DNA from: a virus
Lineage: Duplodnaviria > Caudoviricetes
Direction: 5' to 3' (one strand)
DNA: 50,046 bases
IMG/VR virus record: IMGVR_UViG_3300030376_005812
Coordinates: 1 to 50,046 of that record
Part shown: piece by piece, positions 2,085-46,652 of the stretch
How positions within the stretch are numbered: the stretch's first letter is position 1
How the letters are laid out: each line of letters starts with the position of its first letter
Notes under the pieces: model-generated
What the model was told of the DNA's origin: nothing
The model's database searches: none
What the model saw: only the letters and a program-made list of their open reading frames with translations
Program-made: the position numbers and the translations under genes

Positions 2085-2612
2085 GTGGCTATCGACACCT
2101 CTGTAAAGTCTATGTTCTCTCAGTTTCAGGCGCAATACGAAACCGCTCAGGCCGACAACGGTATGGGCAGTCTCGGCTGGTGGCCTGACGCTGGTGAGCA
2201 TCAGGTCTTCGTCACCAACCTCAGCATCGAGCCCAGCGTGTTCAAGCAGCGCGATGGTATGGAGATCGAGGGCTTCACCGCCCAGTTCGAATACCAGCTT
2301 CTCGAAGATGCTGGCAGCCCCGAGGAACCCCGCAAGTTCCAAGGCGCACCTTTCACCCTCCCCGGAGATCCCTCCCGCATCACCGACGACAAGTCCAAGA
2401 TGCGTTGCGAGATCGAGACCCGTCGCCTCAAGGGCCACATCGAGACTTGCCTGAACAAGTCCACCAACGACCTTGGTGCTGCTCTGCAGGATCTGGAGAA
2501 TATCCTCTCCGACCCCGAGCGCAGTGTTGTGGTTTCCTGCAAGTGCCAGTATGATACTCGCAATGGGAGAACATATCGGAAGGACTTCCTCACGAAGAAT
2601 CTCTCTTCCTGA
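2085..2612 (+). CDS. Probable single-stranded DNA-binding protein (DUF669-like OB fold)
   Basis: AAGGAG SD with GTG start; PDAGEHQVFVTNLSIE pattern; follows the Sak4-like gene; strong C-ending codon bias. Confidence 0.6.
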   Translation: MAIDTSVKSMFSQFQAQYETAQADNGMGSLGWWPDAGEHQVFVTNLSIEPSVFKQRDGMEIEGFTAQFEYQLLEDAGSPEEPRKFQGAPFTLPGDPSRITDDKSKMRCEIETRRLKGHIETCLNKSTNDLGAALQDLENILSDPERSVVVSCKCQYDTRNGRTYRKDFLTKNLSS

Positions 2613-35409: not shown

Positions 35410-36837
35410 ATGAACTGGAACAATAACCCGTTGGAATCACTAGAGCCTATCAAAGTTGGTAGGCGAGTACTTCGTGATTATTTCACAGGATCGTCAGGAC
35501 ATCAAGGTTTGTATCGGTGGAGGGGAGAGTTTTGGCACTGGGACGGTCAACAGTGGGAGATTCTTCGTGAAGACAAGATCCGTGAGCGGGTACTGCTCAT
35601 CTTGGAAGATGCGGTTTGGGAACAATTTACCGCAAACGGTCCTGTCATCAGACGCTATGCCCCCGACAAAAACAAGATCGAGGGTGTCGTCAATGCTTTG
35701 GAAGCTCTATGTCGGCTAGACAAGGAAGAGGTTCCTTGTTGGATCATACCACAGGAACAACATATTGATCCAGCACATTGTATTGCGTTCCAAGATCACA
35801 TCATCGACATCAAAAACAGCACTTCTGAGTCTTGGGTAATGAAAGACAGAGACCAGCGATGGTTTGATACGTCGGTTATTCCGTGTGGGATTGATCCTGA
35901 TGCTGAGTGTCCTCGTTGGGAAAAGGCATTGCACGAATGGGGCAACGGAGATCCTGAGTGGGGTCGTTTGCTGCAGCGTTGGTTTGGGTATTGTTTGATG
36001 GGCACGCGCAAGTATGCGAAGTGGCTGTTGATGTACGGCAAGATCCGTGGTGGCAAGGGCACAATCTGCAGTGTGTTGAAGCAGTTGACCGGCCCGACCA
36101 CTTATCTGAGTACGTCGCTGGAGGATCTGGCAAACGAGTTTGGGCTGGACGGTTTGGAACTGAGCAAGGTGCTGAGTATCAGCGAGGTTTCAGAGATTGA
36201 CAGCAAGTCAGGGGAAAGGGTTTGTCGGATACTCAAGAACATCGTGGGCCGTGACCCCATGACTGTGAATGTGAAGTACCGAAGGCAGCTCAGAAACGTG
36301 ACTGTTGGGGCTGCGCCGCTGATGCAGTCCAACGAGATCCCAGTTCTGCCCAACAAGGGCCGTGGATTGTCCGGCAAGATGTTGGTTCTGCCTTTTGATG
36401 TCAGCTTTGAAGGTCGTGAAGACTTTGAGCTGGATGCGGATTTGAAGAAGGAGATCCCCGGCATTGCAGCATGGGCTGTTCGTGGTGCGATTGAGCTTGA
36501 GGGGTCTGATCGGGACAACAAGTGGCCTGTTCCTGAGGCGGGCAAGAACGCGATCCGTCTATATCACCTGCAGAACAACCCCTTCGACAGCTTCTTGGAG
36601 GCTCGGTTCATCAGGAACGAGAGTGGGTTTACTGCCAATGAGATTGTCAGGAGTCAGTGGGAAAGTTGGCTGCGGGCAAACAAAGTCAAGATGCACGTCC
36701 CCCGCAACATGCTGATCCAGCGGATTGCTCAGGACTGTTCATGGGATCTGAGGCAGACAAGGCTGTCCCAAAATGAGGGACATCACCGTGGTGTTGCTGG
36801 CATGACCTTGAAGAGGGAGTATGATGACGAGCATTGA
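35410..36837 (+). CDS. D5/P4-type superfamily 3 helicase lacking a primase domain
   Basis: D5_N-like FWHWDGQQW, CPRWEKAL..LQRWFGYCL, Walker A GKIRGGKGT, Walker B ISEV, LKNIVGRD..VNVKY and motif C QSNEIP. Confidence 0.88.
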   Translation: MNWNNNPLESLEPIKVGRRVLRDYFTGSSGHQGLYRWRGEFWHWDGQQWEILREDKIRERVLLILEDAVWEQFTANGPVIRRYAPDKNKIEGVVNALEALCRLDKEEVPCWIIPQEQHIDPAHCIAFQDHIIDIKNSTSESWVMKDRDQRWFDTSVIPCGIDPDAECPRWEKALHEWGNGDPEWGRLLQRWFGYCLMGTRKYAKWLLMYGKIRGGKGTICSVLKQLTGPTTYLSTSLEDLANEFGLDGLELSKVLSISEVSEIDSKSGERVCRILKNIVGRDPMTVNVKYRRQLRNVTVGAAPLMQSNEIPVLPNKGRGLSGKMLVLPFDVSFEGREDFELDADLKKEIPGIAAWAVRGAIELEGSDRDNKWPVPEAGKNAIRLYHLQNNPFDSFLEARFIRNESGFTANEIVRSQWESWLRANKVKMHVPRNMLIQRIAQDCSWDLRQTRLSQNEGHHRGVAGMTLKREYDDEH

Positions 36838-39005: not shown

Positions 39006-39482
39006 ATGACTTTGATCCTCAATCGTACTCAGTTCATCGACGTGGACGCTCCCGTGTCCGCAGGTGGCTATGCCTGTGACATCTCCAACGTCACTGCATC
39101 CAAGCCCGGTGAGCCTCTCTCCATCACCATCGTCTGCAATGTCGTTGATGATGGCATCAACAAGCAGGTTCTTGATCGCCTCAACTTCGAGCATCCCAAG
39201 AACGCAGTCCGTGACATCGCCAAGCAGAAGGTTGTTGCATACCTCAATGCAACTGACCAGAGTGACAAGCTCGCTGACTTCAGCAAGTTCATGCTTGGTC
39301 AGGGTGGATTCGACTTCAGCTGCCTGATCGGTGGTCAGTGCTGGATCCACGTCATCGAGTCCGGTGAGTGGCGCAACGTGGACATCAAGGAGAAGCCCCG
39401 TGCTCTCGCCAAGGGTGAGACCTTCAAGGCCGCTGCACCTCACGACTCCACCAAGAAGCCCAACCTCACAGTCAAGCGTTGA
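39006..39482 (+). CDS. DUF669-like (SSB-like) protein
   Basis: PVSAGGYACDISNV..K..LSITIVCNVVD..VLDRLNF..AVRDIAKQKV..LIGGQCWIHV pattern. Confidence 0.65.
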   Translation: MTLILNRTQFIDVDAPVSAGGYACDISNVTASKPGEPLSITIVCNVVDDGINKQVLDRLNFEHPKNAVRDIAKQKVVAYLNATDQSDKLADFSKFMLGQGGFDFSCLIGGQCWIHVIESGEWRNVDIKEKPRALAKGETFKAAAPHDSTKKPNLTVKR

Positions 39483-42843: not shown

Positions 42844-43590
42844 ATGTCGTACATGAAGAGAGTTTACGAAGACAAACTCAACATACATCTAGATCAGTTT
42901 CCTTCTCGACCAGACTGCACCATGTGTGAGCTGCACGAAGAAGCAACCAATCCCGGTGTGCCCACTGTATGGTGGCACGAGTCAAGGGATCCATTCGAAG
43001 ATGTACCCATCCTCATCGTGCTCGGTATGAATCCGGGTTACCAAGAGGACAAGAAAAACCAACCATTCATCGGACCCTCAGGCCAGCTGCTCAAGGGTCC
43101 TTACCTCAAGGGATCAAAGCTCAATGAAGTTGCCTGCGTATACTTTGCAAACGCTGCTCGATGTTGGACCCCAAGTGCAAGTCCCCCCCGTCGAAAGCAT
43201 TTCAAGTCTTGTTTCGAACACACTATTGTGGACGCAAACAACATCGTCCGTGCTCGACGAGATGCAAAAGTTGCTTGGCTGTGTTGTGGAGCAGCAGCAG
43301 TTGACTCCCTCTCATCAGCCTTACTGCCCTCCCGAATCAATCTGTCGGGATCTTTCAAAGCTCAGTCGTTGCCTTTTGATCTTGTCGGACGTGATGCTGA
43401 GGGTCAGCTCGAAGCAGCCGGAAGGCAGTGCAATCTCTTTGCCACTTACCATCCCGCTGCAGTCCTTCGAAATCCTAACCTCATCCATGCCGTCGCAGAC
43501 CACCTCGCCCTCCTCCACTCCTACCTCGAAGGAACCATCCCAGTCCCAAGCAAGCCTACCTTGGTACCGCCAAGAGCCCCAGAATCCTAA
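42844..43590 (+). CDS. Uracil-DNA glycosylase family 4-like protein (SPO1 polymerase-associated type)
   Basis: CTMC, GMNPG..ED..PFIGPSGQLL, NAARC, KSC and TYHPAAVLR; four Fe-S cysteines are retained. Confidence 0.85.
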   Translation: MSYMKRVYEDKLNIHLDQFPSRPDCTMCELHEEATNPGVPTVWWHESRDPFEDVPILIVLGMNPGYQEDKKNQPFIGPSGQLLKGPYLKGSKLNEVACVYFANAARCWTPSASPPRRKHFKSCFEHTIVDANNIVRARRDAKVAWLCCGAAAVDSLSSALLPSRINLSGSFKAQSLPFDLVGRDAEGQLEAAGRQCNLFATYHPAAVLRNPNLIHAVADHLALLHSYLEGTIPVPSKPTLVPPRAPES

Positions 43591-43618
43591 GCACGTTCTA
43601 CCTCAAGAGGAGTAGAAG

Positions 43619-46099
43619 ATGACAAGCCCAAGGGTAATCTCACTCGACATCGAATCGTATGGCGCGTGCCATGCCAACAGTGAAGGCAAGCTTCTGCCCG
43701 AACAGAAGCTGTTCAATCCCTTGAGGTCCATGCACACTGACGGTGTGACAAGAGATGATCTTGTTCTTACTGTCGCAATTACCCTGCCGGAGTACGACCC
43801 CCGATGCAACTCTTCCTTCCCGGATTCGAAGACTACGATCACGAACTCGACATCGACTTCCAAGACCAAGTTAGTGACAGACTCGAACAGATCGCAGACT
43901 TCCTCATGTCAAGAGCAAACCAAACAGGACTCAGTCCCTTGGAGCTGCTCTACACTAGCGGCATTATCACCCGCGACGAGCATGGTCTTCCAGATGTCAG
44001 TCGAATCCCACCGGACCCTCTTGAGGAAGTGGCTCCAACACTCAAATACCATCCTTGGGATGAACCTACAGTTTGACATCCAGTACCTTCGCCAGCTTCC
44101 AGACTTCAGGTTTGTCCTTGATGGCCGACAAACTCTCATCGACCTTTCGGTCGTCAACTACATCCACAACGAGCTGCGCCCAGAGAAGTCACTCAAGTCT
44201 CTGGGTCCGGTTCTTGGCACCCACACCTACGAGCAAACAATAAAAGACGGTCGCTTCAAGAGCCCTAAAGACGCAGAGATTATTTCCTACAACGCGCAAG
44301 ACACTCACAATACAATGTTGTGTGTCTCTGAGCTTGCCAAAAGAATCTTGAAAGATCAGCCATGCCCGACCAACACCCAGTCCATCTCTTCGATAGAGAC
44401 ATTACCTTCTCCCTCAACTTCAACGGAGAGAGTTTCCGACTCAGAGCCAAGGACCTCAAGCAGTGCTTCAAGGAAGTCTTCGCTCACCCTCAGCTCTGGG
44501 CCAAGCCCATCGGTGGAGACCACACAATCTTCGACGAGTTGCCTGCCACCTCCATCGACATCAGCAAGTTCACTCTCAACTTCATCGCACTCGCAGCTTG
44601 CACCGTGTCCGAAAACCTTGATGAAGAGTTTAGCCGAGACGAAAGAGAGTAAGCTCTCCCCCCAAAGTATCGAGCATTACTCCGACACCATCTGGTCATG
44701 TATCACCATGTCAGAGTCGGGTATCCCCATGTCCTTTGACCTACTCAACAAGCAGCTAAAGAACCTGACTTTCAAGTGTGAGATTGCAGCGCGAGTATCC
44801 AAGAGCAAGTACAATCTTGTGCTCGAAGGAAAAGGCTCAGCCAAGTCAAAGCAGGAGTTCATTGACGAGATCATCGAAGAGATCGACAGTCACTCCTCCA
44901 TCGACATCCTCAGCCACCCCCTGCTTTCCCTTACTCCCAAGACGAAAAAGATCTCATGGTCCGAGGACAATCGCAATCTACTCTCATCCTACCTGCCGAA
45001 GGATCATCGACTGCAGTCTGCTATCAGGGTAGTGAAGTACCATGCTTCAGCACAGAAGTTGATCTCGACCTACCTGTACCCCCTGCTGAAACACAGGAGG
45101 AACAGACCACAGGACAAGTCATCGGTACTTATTCCGTTCTCGAAGGAGATTGGTTTAGCTCACCCGACGTGGTACATAGTTCCATCCCTGCCCAAGGACA
45201 CAGGATCGGAAGGCGGGACGATACAAGGCCGTATCACCTGCAAGAGTCCATCAGCTCAGACCTTTCCTCCCCCCATCAAGAAGGCGATGAAGTCCCGTTG
45301 GACTAACGGTTCGATCATTGGCTTCGACTTGTCACAGATCGAGCTTCGTGTTGCTGCCCTGTTGTCAGGTGATGACAAGCTGATCCAATCATTCACCGAG
45401 GGTCTCGACCTACACACCGACAGAACGGTGTCAGTCTTTGGCGAAGACATTCAGTCCGACCCCCAGTTCAAATCCAAGTGGCGACAGATCGGCAAGACCC
45501 TGAACTTTGCCGACCTCTTCTTGGCATCAGCCTCACGTATGCAGCGCACCGTTGTCGAAATGTGTGGCGACCTTATGCCCATTCCTTTCTTCAACAACAT
45601 CGTCAAGACCCGATACCTCCAACGACCCGGCCTCTGCTCTTGGCAGTACGAACTTGCCTGTGTTGCAGAGACCCAAGGCACCCTCGTACTTCCGATAACC
45701 GGACAGTCCCGCACCTTTACCAGCTTCGAAGTTGACCACACCAAGTGGGATCGCAATCGAATCGTGGCTCCTGTCTACAACAAGAACTTCAAGTCACTGC
45801 TCAATGAAGTAGTAAACTTCCCCATTCAGACGACAGCTGGCAATGTTCTTCTTCAAATCCAGCACAACTTAAATAGAATGATGGGGTCAATGAACCGCGT
45901 AGGCAGACGGCCCCTTATGTTCCTTCAGGTTTATGACGCGGTATACTTCGACTGTCCCACGGAGCAGGTCTCTGACCTTGAGGAAATGATTTCGAATGCT
46001 GTCGATCTGGTGGTTCATGGTGGTGGTTATTGGAATCAGCTGCAGCAGATCTTTCAGCGCACTGTCCCAGTGCTGTACGAAGTCGAGCAGGTCTCTTGA
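43619..46099 (+). CDS. polA: DNA polymerase family A (3'-5' exonuclease and polymerase domains, no 5'-3' exonuclease)
   Basis: ExoI LDIES, ExoII NLQFD, ExoIII YNAQD; TIQGRITCKSP, motif A DLSQIELR, motif B RQIGKTLNF, NFPIQ and motif C QVYDA. Confidence 0.92.
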   Translation: MTSPRVISLDIESYGACHANSEGKLLPEQKLFNPLRSMHTDGVTRDDLVLTVAITLPEYDPRCNSSFPDSKTTITNSTSTSKTKLVTDSNRSQTSSCQEQTKQDSVPWSCSTLAALSPATSMVFQMSVESHRTLLRKWLQHSNTILGMNLQFDIQYLRQLPDFRFVLDGRQTLIDLSVVNYIHNELRPEKSLKSLGPVLGTHTYEQTIKDGRFKSPKDAEIISYNAQDTHNTMLCVSELAKRILKDQPCPTNTQSISSIETLPSPSTSTERVSDSEPRTSSSASRKSSLTLSSGPSPSVETTQSSTSCLPPPSTSASSLSTSSHSQLAPCPKTLMKSLAETKESKLSPQSIEHYSDTIWSCITMSESGIPMSFDLLNKQLKNLTFKCEIAARVSKSKYNLVLEGKGSAKSKQEFIDEIIEEIDSHSSIDILSHPLLSLTPKTKKISWSEDNRNLLSSYLPKDHRLQSAIRVVKYHASAQKLISTYLYPLLKHRRNRPQDKSSVLIPFSKEIGLAHPTWYIVPSLPKDTGSEGGTIQGRITCKSPSAQTFPPPIKKAMKSRWTNGSIIGFDLSQIELRVAALLSGDDKLIQSFTEGLDLHTDRTVSVFGEDIQSDPQFKSKWRQIGKTLNFADLFLASASRMQRTVVEMCGDLMPIPFFNNIVKTRYLQRPGLCSWQYELACVAETQGTLVLPITGQSRTFTSFEVDHTKWDRNRIVAPVYNKNFKSLLNEVVNFPIQTTAGNVLLQIQHNLNRMMGSMNRVGRRPLMFLQVYDAVYFDCPTEQVSDLEEMISNAVDLVVHGGGYWNQLQQIFQRTVPVLYEVEQVS
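43804..44076 (+). CDS. Candidate nested gene 1 inside polA (90 aa, acidic)
   Basis: ATG-to-TGA ORF in an alternate frame; GGAG 11 nt upstream; begins where the polymerase turns Ser/Thr-rich. Confidence 0.55.
   Translation: MQLFLPGFEDYDHELDIDFQDQVSDRLEQIADFLMSRANQTGLSPLELLYTSGIITRDEHGLPDVSRIPPDPLEEVAPTLKYHPWDEPTV
44362..44652 (+). CDS. Candidate nested gene 2 inside polA (96 aa)
   Basis: ATG-to-TAA ORF in an alternate frame that matches the Ser/Thr linker end to end; GAAAGA upstream as for genes at 39006 and 40010. Confidence 0.65.
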   Translation: MPDQHPVHLFDRDITFSLNFNGESFRLRAKDLKQCFKEVFAHPQLWAKPIGGDHTIFDELPATSIDISKFTLNFIALAACTVSENLDEEFSRDERE

Positions 46100-46124
46100 C
46101 AAGTAAATTGTGGCTACCTAGTTT
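46096..46124 (+). promoter_or_regulatory. Sigma70-type promoter, probably leaderless
   Basis: TTGACA-N17-TAGTTT, then 6 nt to ATG 46131; no SD present. Confidence 0.65.
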
Positions 46125-46130
46125 GGCCGC

Positions 46131-46652
46131 ATGAAGAAAGAAATCACCATCGTGGTAGATGACAGGGAGAAGAAACCCCTAGCCTTCCCCTCCACAATCG
46201 TCTTCCTTGACCCAAGTAAGATGCCCACCCACAAGAAGCAGACAACCATCCGCATCCACACGGAGAAGGCCCGCCTCACCACTGCCGACTACCTCCTCAA
46301 AGGTGACCCCACCGTGGGGGGAATAGAACGCAAGGGTTCCATCAGCGAGATAGCCCAGAACTGCCTCACCAACGATGGCCGCCGCAAGTTCGTGGACTGC
46401 CTCAAGCGACTCAGGGACGAGTTTAGTAAGCCCTACCTCCTGTTCGAGGGGGACATACACAAGATCCAGTCAGCCAAGATCCACATCCCCGGACCTCCCT
46501 TCAATCCGGGGATAGCTGTTGACTCTTTGATGCGGCTTACTTTAGAATACAACGTACCTATCTACCTCATGCCTTGCTCGACCATTGCTCAACGGAGAGC
46601 CACAGGTGAGTGGGCTGCGCGACTCCTTATCAACACCGCCCTAATGGACTAA
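46131..46652 (+). CDS. ERCC4/XPF-domain nuclease (putative junction resolvase)
   Basis: IVVDDREK, LTTADY, IERKGSISE and YLLFEG motifs. Confidence 0.85.
   Translation: MKKEITIVVDDREKKPLAFPSTIVFLDPSKMPTHKKQTTIRIHTEKARLTTADYLLKGDPTVGGIERKGSISEIAQNCLTNDGRRKFVDCLKRLRDEFSKPYLLFEGDIHKIQSAKIHIPGPPFNPGIAVDSLMRLTLEYNVPIYLMPCSTIAQRRATGEWAARLLINTALMD

What the first reader, a model, noticed from the sequence alone, without database searches (positions are those of the whole stretch)
43619..46099. DNA polymerase gene appears to host two complete nested genes in an alternate frame
Seen: the 826-aa PolA ORF has no stop, yet it contains two Ser/Thr-rich low-complexity blocks that family A polymerases do not normally have. 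One lies between ExoI and ExoII, the other between ExoIII and the polymerase domain. Each block starts at the ATG of a same-strand ORF in the -1 frame (43804 and 44362). Both ORFs encode normal globular-looking sequences and use this phage's C-ending codons. Read one base over, NTC and NAC codons give TCN (Ser) and ACN (Thr), which is the same shadow seen under real genes here (2194..2454, 39064..39327). Inference: in these blocks the nested frame is the one under selection, and the polymerase tolerates the shadow as disordered loops. That would be a gene-within-gene architecture in an essential replicase, distinct from introns and inteins. Alternatives are ribosomal bypassing or RNA-level removal of the inserts.
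Basis: partly seen in the sequence, partly recalled or inferred. Interest (0 to 1): 0.92.

Follow-up and report, generated by a model that had tools for sequence, protein, structure and literature searches.

The report
Two hidden genes inside polymerase gene
A marine phage's DNA polymerase gene carries two inserted stretches that each encode a small separate protein in a shifted reading frame, while the polymerase seems to be read straight through them as floppy loops; this way of packing genes was first described in 2025 for a different kind of inner gene.

Summary
The 826-codon PolA ORF (43619..46099) is open. It carries two clade-specific insertions, at about PolA aa 62-110 and 248-344. Each begins at the ATG of a -1-frame ORF (43804..44076 and 44362..44652).

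Evidence that the -1 frame is the selected one inside the inserts:
- Among seven near-identical relatives, 13 of 16 variant sites in the inserts are synonymous in the -1 frame and 3 of 16 in the pol frame. In the backbone the counts are 8 of 91 and 75 of 91 (Fisher p 5e-9 and 1e-6).
- Nested-frame omega is 0.03-0.05, as low as the polymerase backbone.
- A codon-usage classifier switches frame at the inserts.
- Nested ATGs and stops persist in every diverged lineage found.

The pol frame stays free of stops more often than synonymous resampling predicts (P 0.015-0.195 per insert), and AlphaFold2 models it as unstructured. I found no intron signature, no structured RNA, no slippery sites and no indels in an independent DNA run.

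The architecture matches the "ShiLan" hidden out-of-frame insertions (PMC11855218, 2025), and this scan has noted that kind before on other DNA. The differences here are cargo with no match to any known family (no nuclease domain found), two inserts in one gene, a replicase as host, and vertical inheritance. The function of the nested proteins is unknown. I class it as a new variant of a known kind.

The parts
43619..46099 (+). Family A DNA polymerase gene (826 codons), open throughout; the host of both inserts
   Evidence: AF2 model pTM 0.72 with a well-folded backbone.
43802..43945 (+). Insert 1 (about PolA aa 62-109). In the pol frame it reads a Ser/Thr-rich, unstructured loop between ExoI and ExoII. 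The 3' boundary is approximate.
   Evidence: Absent from L004-L011 in alignment A1. pLDDT below 50 at aa 65-104. The codon-usage classifier prefers the -1 frame from about gene nt 151 to 420.
43804..44076 (+). Nested ORF1, -1 frame, 90 aa. The first 52 or so codons lie in insert 1. The last 38 or so codons overlap conserved exonuclease sequence, and the TGA falls within the Q-F-D codons of ExoII.
   Evidence: The ATG is kept in window, L003, L024, L025 and L021. Omega is 0-0.15 in close pairs. The backbone stretch under the tail has no internal -1 stop in 5 of 5 insert-1 bearers, against an internal stop in 6 of 7 pols without insert 1.
43789..43792 (+). GGAG 11 nt upstream of the ORF1 ATG; candidate Shine-Dalgarno site
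   Evidence: present at the same distance in all 5 insert-1-bearing sequences examined. It lies in the P-E codons of LPEYDPR, a peptide not shared by relatives without insert 1.
44362..44652 (+). Insert 2 and nested ORF2 (-1 frame, 96 aa, ATG to TAA), which coincide almost exactly. In the pol frame this is an unstructured Ser/Thr/Pro-rich linker of about 96 aa (PolA aa 248-344) between the exonuclease and polymerase domains.
   Evidence: Omega is 0-0.11 in the window clade. pLDDT is below 50 at aa 248-343. The classifier prefers the -1 frame at gene nt 721-1050.
44350..44355 (+). GAAAGA 6 nt upstream of the ORF2 ATG; a weak candidate ribosome-binding site
   Evidence: Relatives have AAGGA-type sites instead (L003, L024, L021). 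The ORF at 39006 has the same GAAAGA upstream (listing).

Best explanation
Two 3n-long insertions were acquired by the ancestor of one clade of uncultured marine phages and sit at two permissive sites of the family A polymerase. One site is a loop between the ExoI and ExoII motifs. The other is the linker between the exonuclease and polymerase domains.

Each insertion is dual-coding:
- Ribosomes translating the polymerase read straight through it. They produce a Ser/Thr/Pro-rich disordered loop whose only constraint is that it contains no stop codon.
- Other ribosomes start at an internal ATG in the -1 frame and make a separate small acidic protein: ORF1, about 90 aa, and ORF2, about 96 aa. 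These proteins are the sequences under amino-acid-level purifying selection.

The -1 placement is not arbitrary. C-ending codons in the nested frame put C at the second codon position of the pol frame, which gives Ser, Thr, Pro or Ala and never a stop. The +1 shadow of a gene is also the frame poorest in stops in this genome.

Shown here: the insertions, the frame switch of selection, maintenance of both open frames, and the absence of intron signatures. Inferred: internal initiation, read-through of the polymerase, and any function.

The nested proteins match no known family. Because they are vertically inherited, lack any detectable nuclease domain and sit on the polymerase mRNA, I guess that they are accessory replication or host-takeover factors rather than homing elements. 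That guess is weak.
For: 1. Variants. Unique variant sites among seven window-clade relatives (one of them identical to the window): in the inserts, 13 of 16 are synonymous in the -1 frame and 3 of 16 in the pol frame. In the backbone, 8 of 91 and 75 of 91. Fisher p 4.9e-9 and 1.2e-6 (pairwise lists).
2. Omega (NG86). For window vs L001 and L002, the nested frame in the inserts gives 0.05 and 0.03, and the backbone pol frame gives 0.07 and 0.02. The pol frame inside the inserts gives 2.73 and 1.01, like the +1 shadow of the backbone (2.32 and 4.23). Nested-frame dS (0.08-0.09) equals backbone dS (0.08-0.12).
3. Codon usage. A classifier trained on the other 44 ORFs picks the right frame in 400 of 414 control windows. 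It switches to the -1 frame for windows starting at gene nt 151-331 and 721-961, and picks the pol frame in all other listed windows except the last one (gene nt 1291, -1 frame at 0.75).
4. ORF conservation. The ORF2 homologue is kept from ATG to stop in every lineage found, despite 18-49% identity between lineages: window, L003, L024/25, L004, L021/22 and L023. All 13 of 13 metagenome loci have it inside an open PolA frame. W46, F57, P61, I65, F70 and A76 are invariant.
5. Pol-frame openness. It exceeds expectation under synonymous resampling with genome codon usage. P(open) is 0.195 and 0.076 (window), 0.106 and 0.078 (L003), 0.015 (L004), 0.034 and 0.084 (L021), 0.147 and 0.076 (L024), and 0.136 (L023). 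Nested ORFs have C3 of 0.40-0.54 against 0.31 for the genome.
6. Structure. In the AF2 PolA model (pTM 0.72), flanking blocks have pLDDT 85-94 and the inserts have 25-29 with no secondary structure.
7. Ribosome-binding sites. GGAG lies 11 nt before the ORF1 ATG in 5 of 5 bearers. AAGGA-type sites precede ORF2 in L003, L024 and L021.
8. No RNA-level signal. Rfam gives no intron match. Insert 2 RNA folds no better than shuffles, z -0.24.
9. Not an assembly artefact. Contigs of an independent DNA run cover 43727-43978, 44069-44426 and 44600-44784 with 0 gaps, and there are many independent assemblies.
10. Negative control. The 163-aa alternate-frame ORF over the UDG-like gene shows 5 of 7 variants synonymous in the gene frame and 2 of 7 in its own frame.
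Against: No direct evidence of translation exists for either frame.

Deep divergence is uninformative. For window vs L003 in insert 2, identity is 35 of 87 in the -1 frame and 35 of 82 in the pol frame, and differences by codon position are 40/30/43.

The signal is weaker in the L003 clade:
- Insert 1, L003 vs L024: omega 0.51 (nested frame) against 0.62 (pol frame), with 18% nucleotide divergence against 6% in the backbone.
- Insert 2, L024 vs L025: 0.48 against 0.53.

Openness of either frame is partly a compositional by-product of the other. Permuting synonymous codons within an insert leaves the pol frame open in 13-55% of trials.

The window's ORF2 has only a weak GAAAGA upstream. The AF2 model of ORF2 is of modest confidence (pLDDT 64.9, pTM 0.48, 9 sequences). 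No free-standing homologue of either nested protein was found.

Resampling for the other lineages used the window's codon usage as a proxy, and the gene set was a crude greedy ORF set.
Confidence: 0.75

Rival explanations
1. The inserts are removed or skipped before the polymerase is made, either by an unrecognised small intron or by long-range translational bypassing. The nested ORFs would then be intron- or element-encoded proteins, and the open pol frame would be incidental.
For: The nested ORF2 fills insert 2 from edge to edge, as an element-encoded gene would. Openness of the pol frame is partly explained by C3-rich codons: within-insert synonymous permutation leaves it open in 13-55% of trials. 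No RNA data here can exclude splicing; RNA runs X21 and X22 gave no cover.
Against: The pol frame is open in every one of the 10 insert instances tested, each with resampling P of 0.015-0.195, and in 13 of 13 metagenome loci. No Rfam intron family matches at E<=1. Insert 2 RNA is no more stable than shuffles. Protein-coding constraint runs over the whole insert, leaving no room for a ribozyme core. The inserts, about 150 and 291 nt, are far longer than the 50-nt T4 gene 60 bypass gap (recalled). One contig from an RNA library runs unspliced across the insert 1 start at 43759-43898; this is weak evidence because it may be DNA carry-over.
Confidence: 0.08
2. The -1-frame segments are part of the polymerase itself. 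Ribosomes would shift -1 at the start of each insert and +1 at its end, so the polymerase carries two folded insertion domains.
For: Selection acts on the -1 frame inside the inserts. Homopolymer runs lie near two edges: CCCCC before the ORF1 ATG and CCCCCC after the ORF2 stop.
Against: This needs four programmed shifts per molecule. I saw no X XXY YYZ slippery heptamer in the 12 codons between the upstream -1 stop and the ORF2 ATG (read by eye). The nested ATGs are conserved at the insert starts in all lineages and stop codons at the ends, which initiation and termination explain and frameshifting does not. The pol frame would not need to stay open, yet it does. ORF1's -1 frame runs 38 codons into conserved exonuclease sequence, where selection is on the pol frame.
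Confidence: 0.04
3. The Ser/Thr-rich linkers are the selected feature of the polymerase. The -1 ORFs are compositional shadows that are never translated, because C at codon position 2 automatically removes stops from the -1 frame and fills it with Phe, Ile, Leu, Asp and Asn.
For: The compositional symmetry is real, by codon arithmetic. At deep divergence both frames show similar identity. No homologue of the nested proteins exists outside this gene. The ORF2 model has only moderate confidence.
Against: In the window clade 13 of 16 insert variants are silent in the -1 frame and only 3 of 16 in the pol frame, with omega 0.03-0.05 against 1.0-2.7. This is the opposite of what this rival predicts. 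The codon-usage classifier assigns the -1 frame. ATG, stop and an upstream GGAG are conserved. The true shadow ORF over the UDG-like gene shows no such pattern.
Confidence: 0.04
4. The architecture is the same, but the cargo is selfish. The nested ORFs would be degenerate or novel homing-type elements of the ShiLan kind that spread by invading polymerase genes, rather than accessory genes serving the phage.
For: The published cases of this architecture carry HNH homing endonucleases (PMC11855218; abstract, Results 3.1-3.5 and Discussion read). Polymerase genes are classic homing targets (recalled). Insert 1 is missing from L004, which needs one or two gain/loss events.
Against: Searches find no nuclease or any other known domain in either ORF: Pfam, PHROGs, a PDB sequence profile and Foldseek against PDB, 0 hits at E<=0.001. 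At 52-96 aa they are small for a site-specific nuclease. The insert-bearing pols form one clade (SH-aLRT 100), and insert 2 needs a single gain. The nested proteins diverge along with their hosts. No copy was found at any other site or in any other gene.
Confidence: 0.09

Closest known systems
ShiLan domain and Pacc40-type hidden out-of-frame HNH endonuclease insertions in mycobacteriophage DNA methylase genes (Arsenault, Gosselin & Gogarten 2025, PMC11855218; abstract, Results 3.1-3.5 and Discussion read)
   Same: An insertion absent from relatives. The host frame has no stops and is predicted to loop out. A complete ORF lies in the third (-1) frame and spans nearly the whole insert, with its stop at the insert end. 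No intron or intein signature. How the inner ORF is translated is open in both cases.
   Different: Here the cargo is two unrelated small proteins (90 and 96 aa) that match no known family and have no HNH or zinc-finger domain. The host is the replicase, presumably essential, rather than a dispensable methylase. Two inserts sit in one gene. The distribution is clade-wide and vertical rather than patchy. ORF1 has no stop of its own and runs 38 codons into conserved host sequence. Selection on the inner frame is quantified here.
Classical embedded phage genes made by overprinting (lambda Rz1 inside Rz, phiX174 E inside D and B inside A; recalled)
   Same: A complete gene with its own start lies inside another gene on the same strand in a shifted frame and is translated from the same mRNA.
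   Different: In those cases both frames encode functional sequence over the overlap. Here the outer frame is unconstrained filler within an insertion, except under the ORF1 tail, and the overlap region is itself a lineage-specific addition.
Inteins, and group I or II introns carrying homing endonuclease genes in phage polymerase genes (recalled)
   Same: Extra DNA inside an essential replication gene that does not destroy it.
   Different: No splicing domain was found in the pol-frame translation; Pfam finds only DNA_pol_A. No intron model matches. The coding frame of the extra DNA differs from the host frame.
Rickettsia palindromic elements inserted in frame into protein-coding genes (recalled)
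   Same: Inserted DNA is read through by the host gene as an added surface peptide.
   Different: RPEs are repeated, palindromic, and carry no gene of their own. These inserts are single-copy, show no notable inverted repeats at their ends, and encode proteins in another frame.

Membership tests
ShiLan-type hidden out-of-frame insertion element | Insertion in a host gene that is absent from close homologues | tested here: met
   Alignment A1: insert 1 is absent from L004-L011 and insert 2 from L005-L011.
ShiLan-type hidden out-of-frame insertion element | Host reading frame free of stops across the insertion | tested here: met
   Open in the window and in all relatives. Resampling P(open) is 0.015-0.195 per insert.
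ShiLan-type hidden out-of-frame insertion element | Complete ORF (start to stop) in an alternate frame filling the insertion | tested here: met
   ORF2 fills insert 2 exactly. ORF1 starts at the insert 1 edge but ends 38 codons into host sequence.
ShiLan-type hidden out-of-frame insertion element | Inner ORF encodes an HNH (homing) endonuclease | tested here: not met
   No Pfam, PHROG or PDB-profile match. Foldseek against PDB gives 0 hits at E<=0.001.
ShiLan-type hidden out-of-frame insertion element | Disjoint distribution indicating active homing | tested here: not met
   Insert bearers form one clade (SH-aLRT 100). Insert 2 needs 1 change and insert 1 needs 1-2.
Self-splicing intron (group I or II) | Match to intron covariance models, or a stable conserved RNA core | tested here: not met
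   Rfam scan of 43400-46300 at E<=1 gives only a chance snoRNA hit at E 0.14. Fold z-score is -0.24.
Intein | Hint or splicing domain in the host-frame translation of the insert | tested here: not met
   Pfam on the whole PolA finds only DNA_pol_A. The insert is modelled as coil with pLDDT 25-29.
Family A DNA polymerase with 3'-5' exonuclease (host gene) | DNA_pol_A domain plus ExoI, ExoII and ExoIII motifs | tested here: met
   PF00476 E 3.3e-24. Invariant SLDIE, GMNLQFDIQYL and YNAQDTHNT columns in A1. The motif names are recalled.
Beta-clamp-binding motif protein (ORF1 N-terminus) | QL[S/D]LF / QxxLF or the Hda-type QLSLPL peptide (consensus from passages of PMC12309361), conserved among homologues | tested here: inconclusive
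   The window has MQLFLPGF, L003 has QLYLSD, L024 and L025 have QPYLSD, and L021 has TPIFPE. The resemblance is partial and the Gln is not kept in all lineages. Binding was not tested and the host is unknown.

The most novel reading that the evidence does not exclude
The disordered loops of the polymerase act as a protected harbour, or even a birthplace, for small genes. A Ser/Thr-rich loop automatically offers a stop-free -1 frame rich in hydrophobic and acidic residues. New proteins could arise there de novo, be co-transcribed with the replicase, and be kept by selection. ORF1, with its N-terminal QLFLPGF resembling a beta-clamp-binding motif, and ORF2, with its acidic C-terminal tail, would then be replisome or host-clamp-targeting factors encoded inside the polymerase gene. 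That would make this a non-selfish, functional version of the hidden-insertion architecture.
Probability: 0.12. Interest if true: 0.8.

Novelty: new variant of a known kind. Interest (0 to 1): 0.62.

Why it matters
Gene finders report one gene here and miss two proteins that are under selection as strong as that on the polymerase itself.

The case extends the hidden out-of-frame insertion architecture, published in 2025, in three ways. The cargo is not a selfish HNH nuclease but small proteins of unknown function. The host is a replicase, presumably essential, rather than a dispensable methylase. And the distribution is stable vertical inheritance rather than patchy spread.

It also gives a clean natural example in which selection switches reading frame twice within one ORF. 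That makes it useful as a test case for methods that detect overlapping genes.

It raises a testable question: do permissive loops of essential genes serve as safe sites for acquiring, or for originating, new phage genes?

Tried and rejected
Searches for the function of the nested proteins led nowhere:
- Pfam, PHROGs and a PDB sequence profile (best E 0.066).
- Foldseek of the moderate-confidence ORF2 model against PDB (0 of 130 listed matches at E<=0.001; top hit ZapA, TM 0.38).
- ESM Atlas (only eukaryotic DUF clusters, uninformative).
- hhalign of ORF1 against the ORF2 family (probability 0.2%, so the two are unrelated).

Searches for free-standing homologues:
- Word-indexed search of 5.8 billion proteins with ORF2 and with ORF1: each found only its own cluster.
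- Profile search of 1.84 billion representatives: five small proteins, P0001-P0005. By sequence, P0001, P0002, P0003 and P0005 match the nested ORFs of the window clade, L024, L004 and L023. P0006 is a eukaryote-like repeat protein that I judge spurious.
- The context of P0004 could not be determined.
- Genome contigs: 0 of 57 pattern matches confirmed.
- Own genome: only the ORF itself.
- The cultured-phage collection holds no close PolA relative (all 430 records below 60% identity, covering only the polymerase domain).

Complex prediction of PolA with ORF2 gave no verdict. It is no evidence for or against binding.

RNA runs X21 and X22 gave no cover of the stretch, so they say nothing about expression or splicing.

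Deep-divergence codon-position counts were saturated and uninformative.

The repeat search at the insert edges showed only short, imperfect repeats that I take as chance. There was no target-site duplication and there were no terminal inverted repeats.

The closing count line ('0 of 45') is an indexing bug in my script. I used only the printed upstream sequences from that call.

The first attempt at the upstream negative control assumed colinearity and was wrong for the UDG-like gene. One search repeats it with an alignment.

Supplementary files of PMC11855218 were not consulted. Its Table 1 and its survey of other out-of-frame insertions, which I did not read in full, might list non-HNH or polymerase cases. 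I read nothing of the Gosselin et al. 2023 work, which I know only from earlier scan notes. My claim that no small non-nuclease cargo in a polymerase gene is in print rests on two full-text searches.


Full report
WHAT IS THERE. The window is a nearly complete virus record of 50,046 bases (completeness 98%). Related contigs come from marine metagenomes. The ORF at 43619..46099 (+) is open for 826 codons, and Pfam recognises a family A polymerase domain at aa 430-795 (E 3.3e-24). Two same-strand ORFs lie inside it in the -1 frame: 43804..44076 (90 aa) and 44362..44652 (96 aa). Among 45 crude ORFs of the window, the three most Ser+Thr-rich 40-residue windows are all in this gene: 23 of 40 twice in the second block and 19 of 40 in the first. 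No cultured phage in the collection has a close relative; all 430 hits are below 60% identity and cover only the polymerase domain.

THE BLOCKS ARE INSERTIONS. Eleven related viral loci were fetched, and ten polymerases were aligned (A1).
- L001 and L002 (98-99% identity) and L003 (67%) have both blocks.
- L004 (59%) has only the second block.
- L005-L011 (39-46%) have neither.

Insert 1 lies after LPEYDPRC, between the DIE and NLQFD exonuclease motifs, at about aa 62-110. Insert 2 lies after the ExoIII helix, at aa 248-344. Insert 2 coincides almost exactly with the nested ORF2, from its ATG to its TAA. A backbone tree (654 columns, insert columns dropped by the fill filter) puts all insert bearers in one clade with SH-aLRT 100. 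Insert 2 needs one gain. Insert 1 needs one or two events, because the basal three-way split is unresolved.

WHICH FRAME IS UNDER SELECTION. Openness alone proves nothing. C at the third position of -1-frame codons is C at the second position of pol-frame codons, so each frame keeps the other free of stops. I therefore used substitutions.
- Variant counts. Across seven window-clade relatives, one of them identical to the window, there are 16 unique variants in the inserts. Thirteen are synonymous in the -1 frame and 3 in the pol frame. The backbone has 91 variants: 8 synonymous in the -1 frame and 75 in the pol frame. Fisher p is 4.9e-9 and 1.2e-6 (pairwise details).
- Omega (NG86), window vs L001 and L002. 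The nested frame in the inserts gives 0.05 and 0.03, and the backbone pol frame gives 0.07 and 0.02. The pol frame inside the inserts gives 2.73 and 1.01, which is what a mere +1 shadow gives in the backbone (2.32 and 4.23). Nested-frame dS matches backbone dS.
- The L003 clade gives a weaker signal: nested 0.34-0.40 against pol frame 0.68-0.77. Two comparisons do not discriminate: insert 1 of L003 vs L024 (0.51 against 0.62) and insert 2 of L024 vs L025 (0.48 against 0.53). Insert 1 also diverges three times faster than the backbone there.
- At the deepest divergence both frames show similar identity, so that comparison is uninformative.
- A codon-usage classifier trained on the other 44 ORFs is right in 400 of 414 control windows. 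It switches to the -1 frame at gene nt 151-420 and 721-1050 and picks the pol frame in every other listed window except the last one, at gene nt 1291.
- Negative control. The 163-aa alternate-frame ORF over the neighbouring UDG-like gene behaves as a shadow: 5 of 7 variants are silent in the gene frame and 2 of 7 in its own frame.

THE NESTED ORFS PERSIST. A profile search of 1.84 billion representative proteins found five small relatives of ORF2. A metagenome scan found 13 loci, and in all 13 the homologue lies inside an open PolA frame. The distinct lineages are the window type, L003, L024/25, L004, L021/22 and L023, plus P0004 of unknown context. They share only 18-49% identity. Each lineage that I could read as DNA keeps ATG, stop and length; L023 is cut by the contig end near its start. 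The invariant core is L32, W46, F57, P61, I65, F70 and A76.

ORF1 keeps its ATG, with a GGAG 11 nt upstream, in all five insert-1 bearers examined. Its stop is the TGA formed by the conserved TTT-GAC of ExoII, so its last 38 codons or so overprint conserved exonuclease sequence. That stretch has no internal -1 stop in 5 of 5 bearers, while 6 of 7 polymerases without insert 1 have one. ORF1 and ORF2 are unrelated to each other.

THE POLYMERASE FRAME IS KEPT OPEN. I held each nested protein fixed and redrew its codons from genome usage. The pol frame then stays open with the following probabilities:

| Lineage | Insert 1 | Insert 2 |
|---|---|---|
| window | 0.195 | 0.076 |
| L003 | 0.106 | 0.078 |
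| L004 | no insert | 0.015 |
| L021 | 0.034 | 0.084 |
| L024 | 0.147 | 0.076 |
| L023 | not on the contig | 0.136 |

All ten instances are open. The nested ORFs achieve this through C3 of 0.40-0.54 against a genome value of 0.31. Permuting synonymous codons within an insert gives higher probabilities (0.13-0.55), so the signal lies in codon choice rather than codon order. The lineages are not fully independent, and the window's codon usage was used as a proxy for the others. The AF2 model of PolA (pTM 0.72) has flanks at pLDDT 85-94. Residues 65-104 and 248-343 sit at 25-29 with no secondary structure.

ALTERNATIVES.
- Assembly error is excluded. There are many independent assemblies, and contigs of an independent DNA run cross three of the insert edges without gaps. 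Only insert 1's approximate 3' edge is not well bridged: the contig ending at 43978 extends just past it.
- Intron. No Rfam match at E<=1 apart from a chance snoRNA, and insert 2 RNA folds no better than shuffles.
- Intein. No splicing domain was found.
- Double frameshifting. It would need four shifts per molecule, I saw no slippery heptamer (by eye), and it would not explain the conserved ATGs and stops.
- An RNA-library contig runs unspliced over the insert 1 start. It may be DNA carry-over.

WHAT THE NESTED PROTEINS ARE. Unknown. They match no Pfam, PHROG or PDB family. The ORF2 model is of modest confidence (pLDDT 64.9): a beta-hairpin, a helix and a long C-terminal helix ending in an acidic tail. 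It has no significant structural neighbour.

The consensus is QL[S/D]LF or QxxLF, and the Hda peptide is QLSLPL (passages of PMC12309361). The relatives read QLYLSD, QPYLSD and TPIFPE, so this is a partial, unproven lead.

No nuclease domain was detected, the inserts are single-site, and inheritance looks vertical. All of that argues against active homing.

COMPARISON WITH THE KNOWN. The closest published case is the ShiLan domain (PMC11855218; abstract, Results 3.1-3.5 and Discussion read; found). It is an insertion in a mycobacteriophage methylase gene whose host frame is open and which hides an HNH endonuclease in the third frame, with no intron or intein features. The present case shares that architecture, including the relative frame. 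It fails two features of the ShiLan family: an HNH cargo and a patchy distribution.

This scan has noted the same kind on other DNA. Fifty-nine notes hold the search words, and most of the eight shown concern HNH cargo.

I therefore class this as a new variant of a known kind. It has non-nuclease cargo matching no known family, two inserts in one replicase gene, clade-wide vertical retention, and inner-frame selection as strong as on the polymerase itself. Two full-text searches found no paper describing small non-nuclease genes hidden this way in a polymerase gene. I could not see the supplements of the ShiLan paper.

VERDICT. My confidence in the dual-coding, read-through model is 0.75, and I score interest at 0.62.

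Noticed in passing
window 43124..43615 (+), inside the UDG-like gene 42844..43590: A 163-aa ORF in the +1 frame of the UDG-family gene; one search puts the longest open +1-shadow run in the genome, 185 codons, in this gene. Variants against L001 show it is only a shadow: 5 of 7 are silent in the gene frame and 2 of 7 in its own frame.
   Followed up: yes
L006, L007 and L009, PolA alignment A1 columns about 531-580: The more distant polymerases carry a different in-frame insertion of about 48 aa just before the conserved YPTW motif. It is absent from the window clade and reads like ordinary protein in the pol frame. I did not check it for alternate-frame coding.
   Followed up: no
L005 and L010, downstream of the PolA match (open frame to 5244): In these relatives the polymerase frame continues about 60 codons past the point where the others end, as a Ser/Gly/Pro-rich tail.
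   Followed up: no
window 42844..43590 and 46131..46652: The polymerase is flanked by a UDG-superfamily gene (PF03167, E 8.6e-13) and by a small protein with a weak, sub-threshold ERCC4 nuclease match (E 0.0021). In the latter, 16 of 18 variants against L001 are silent, so it is under strong purifying selection.
   Followed up: partly
window 35410..36834 (+): A 475-aa protein matches only the C-terminal, helicase-like part of PHROG 'DNA primase' families (profile positions about 350-770).
   Followed up: no
window 43759..43898, RNA-library run X20: The single contig from a metatranscriptome run that touches this gene shows an 'opposite strands' joint (43759/43866). This is probably an assembly or library artefact.
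   Followed up: no
P0006 (profile search hit): A 1274-aa eukaryote-like protein with many tandem repeats of about 90 aa matched the ORF2 profile at E 3.5e-10 over 9 stretches. I take this as a repeat-inflated chance match to the beta-hairpin segment.
   Followed up: partly
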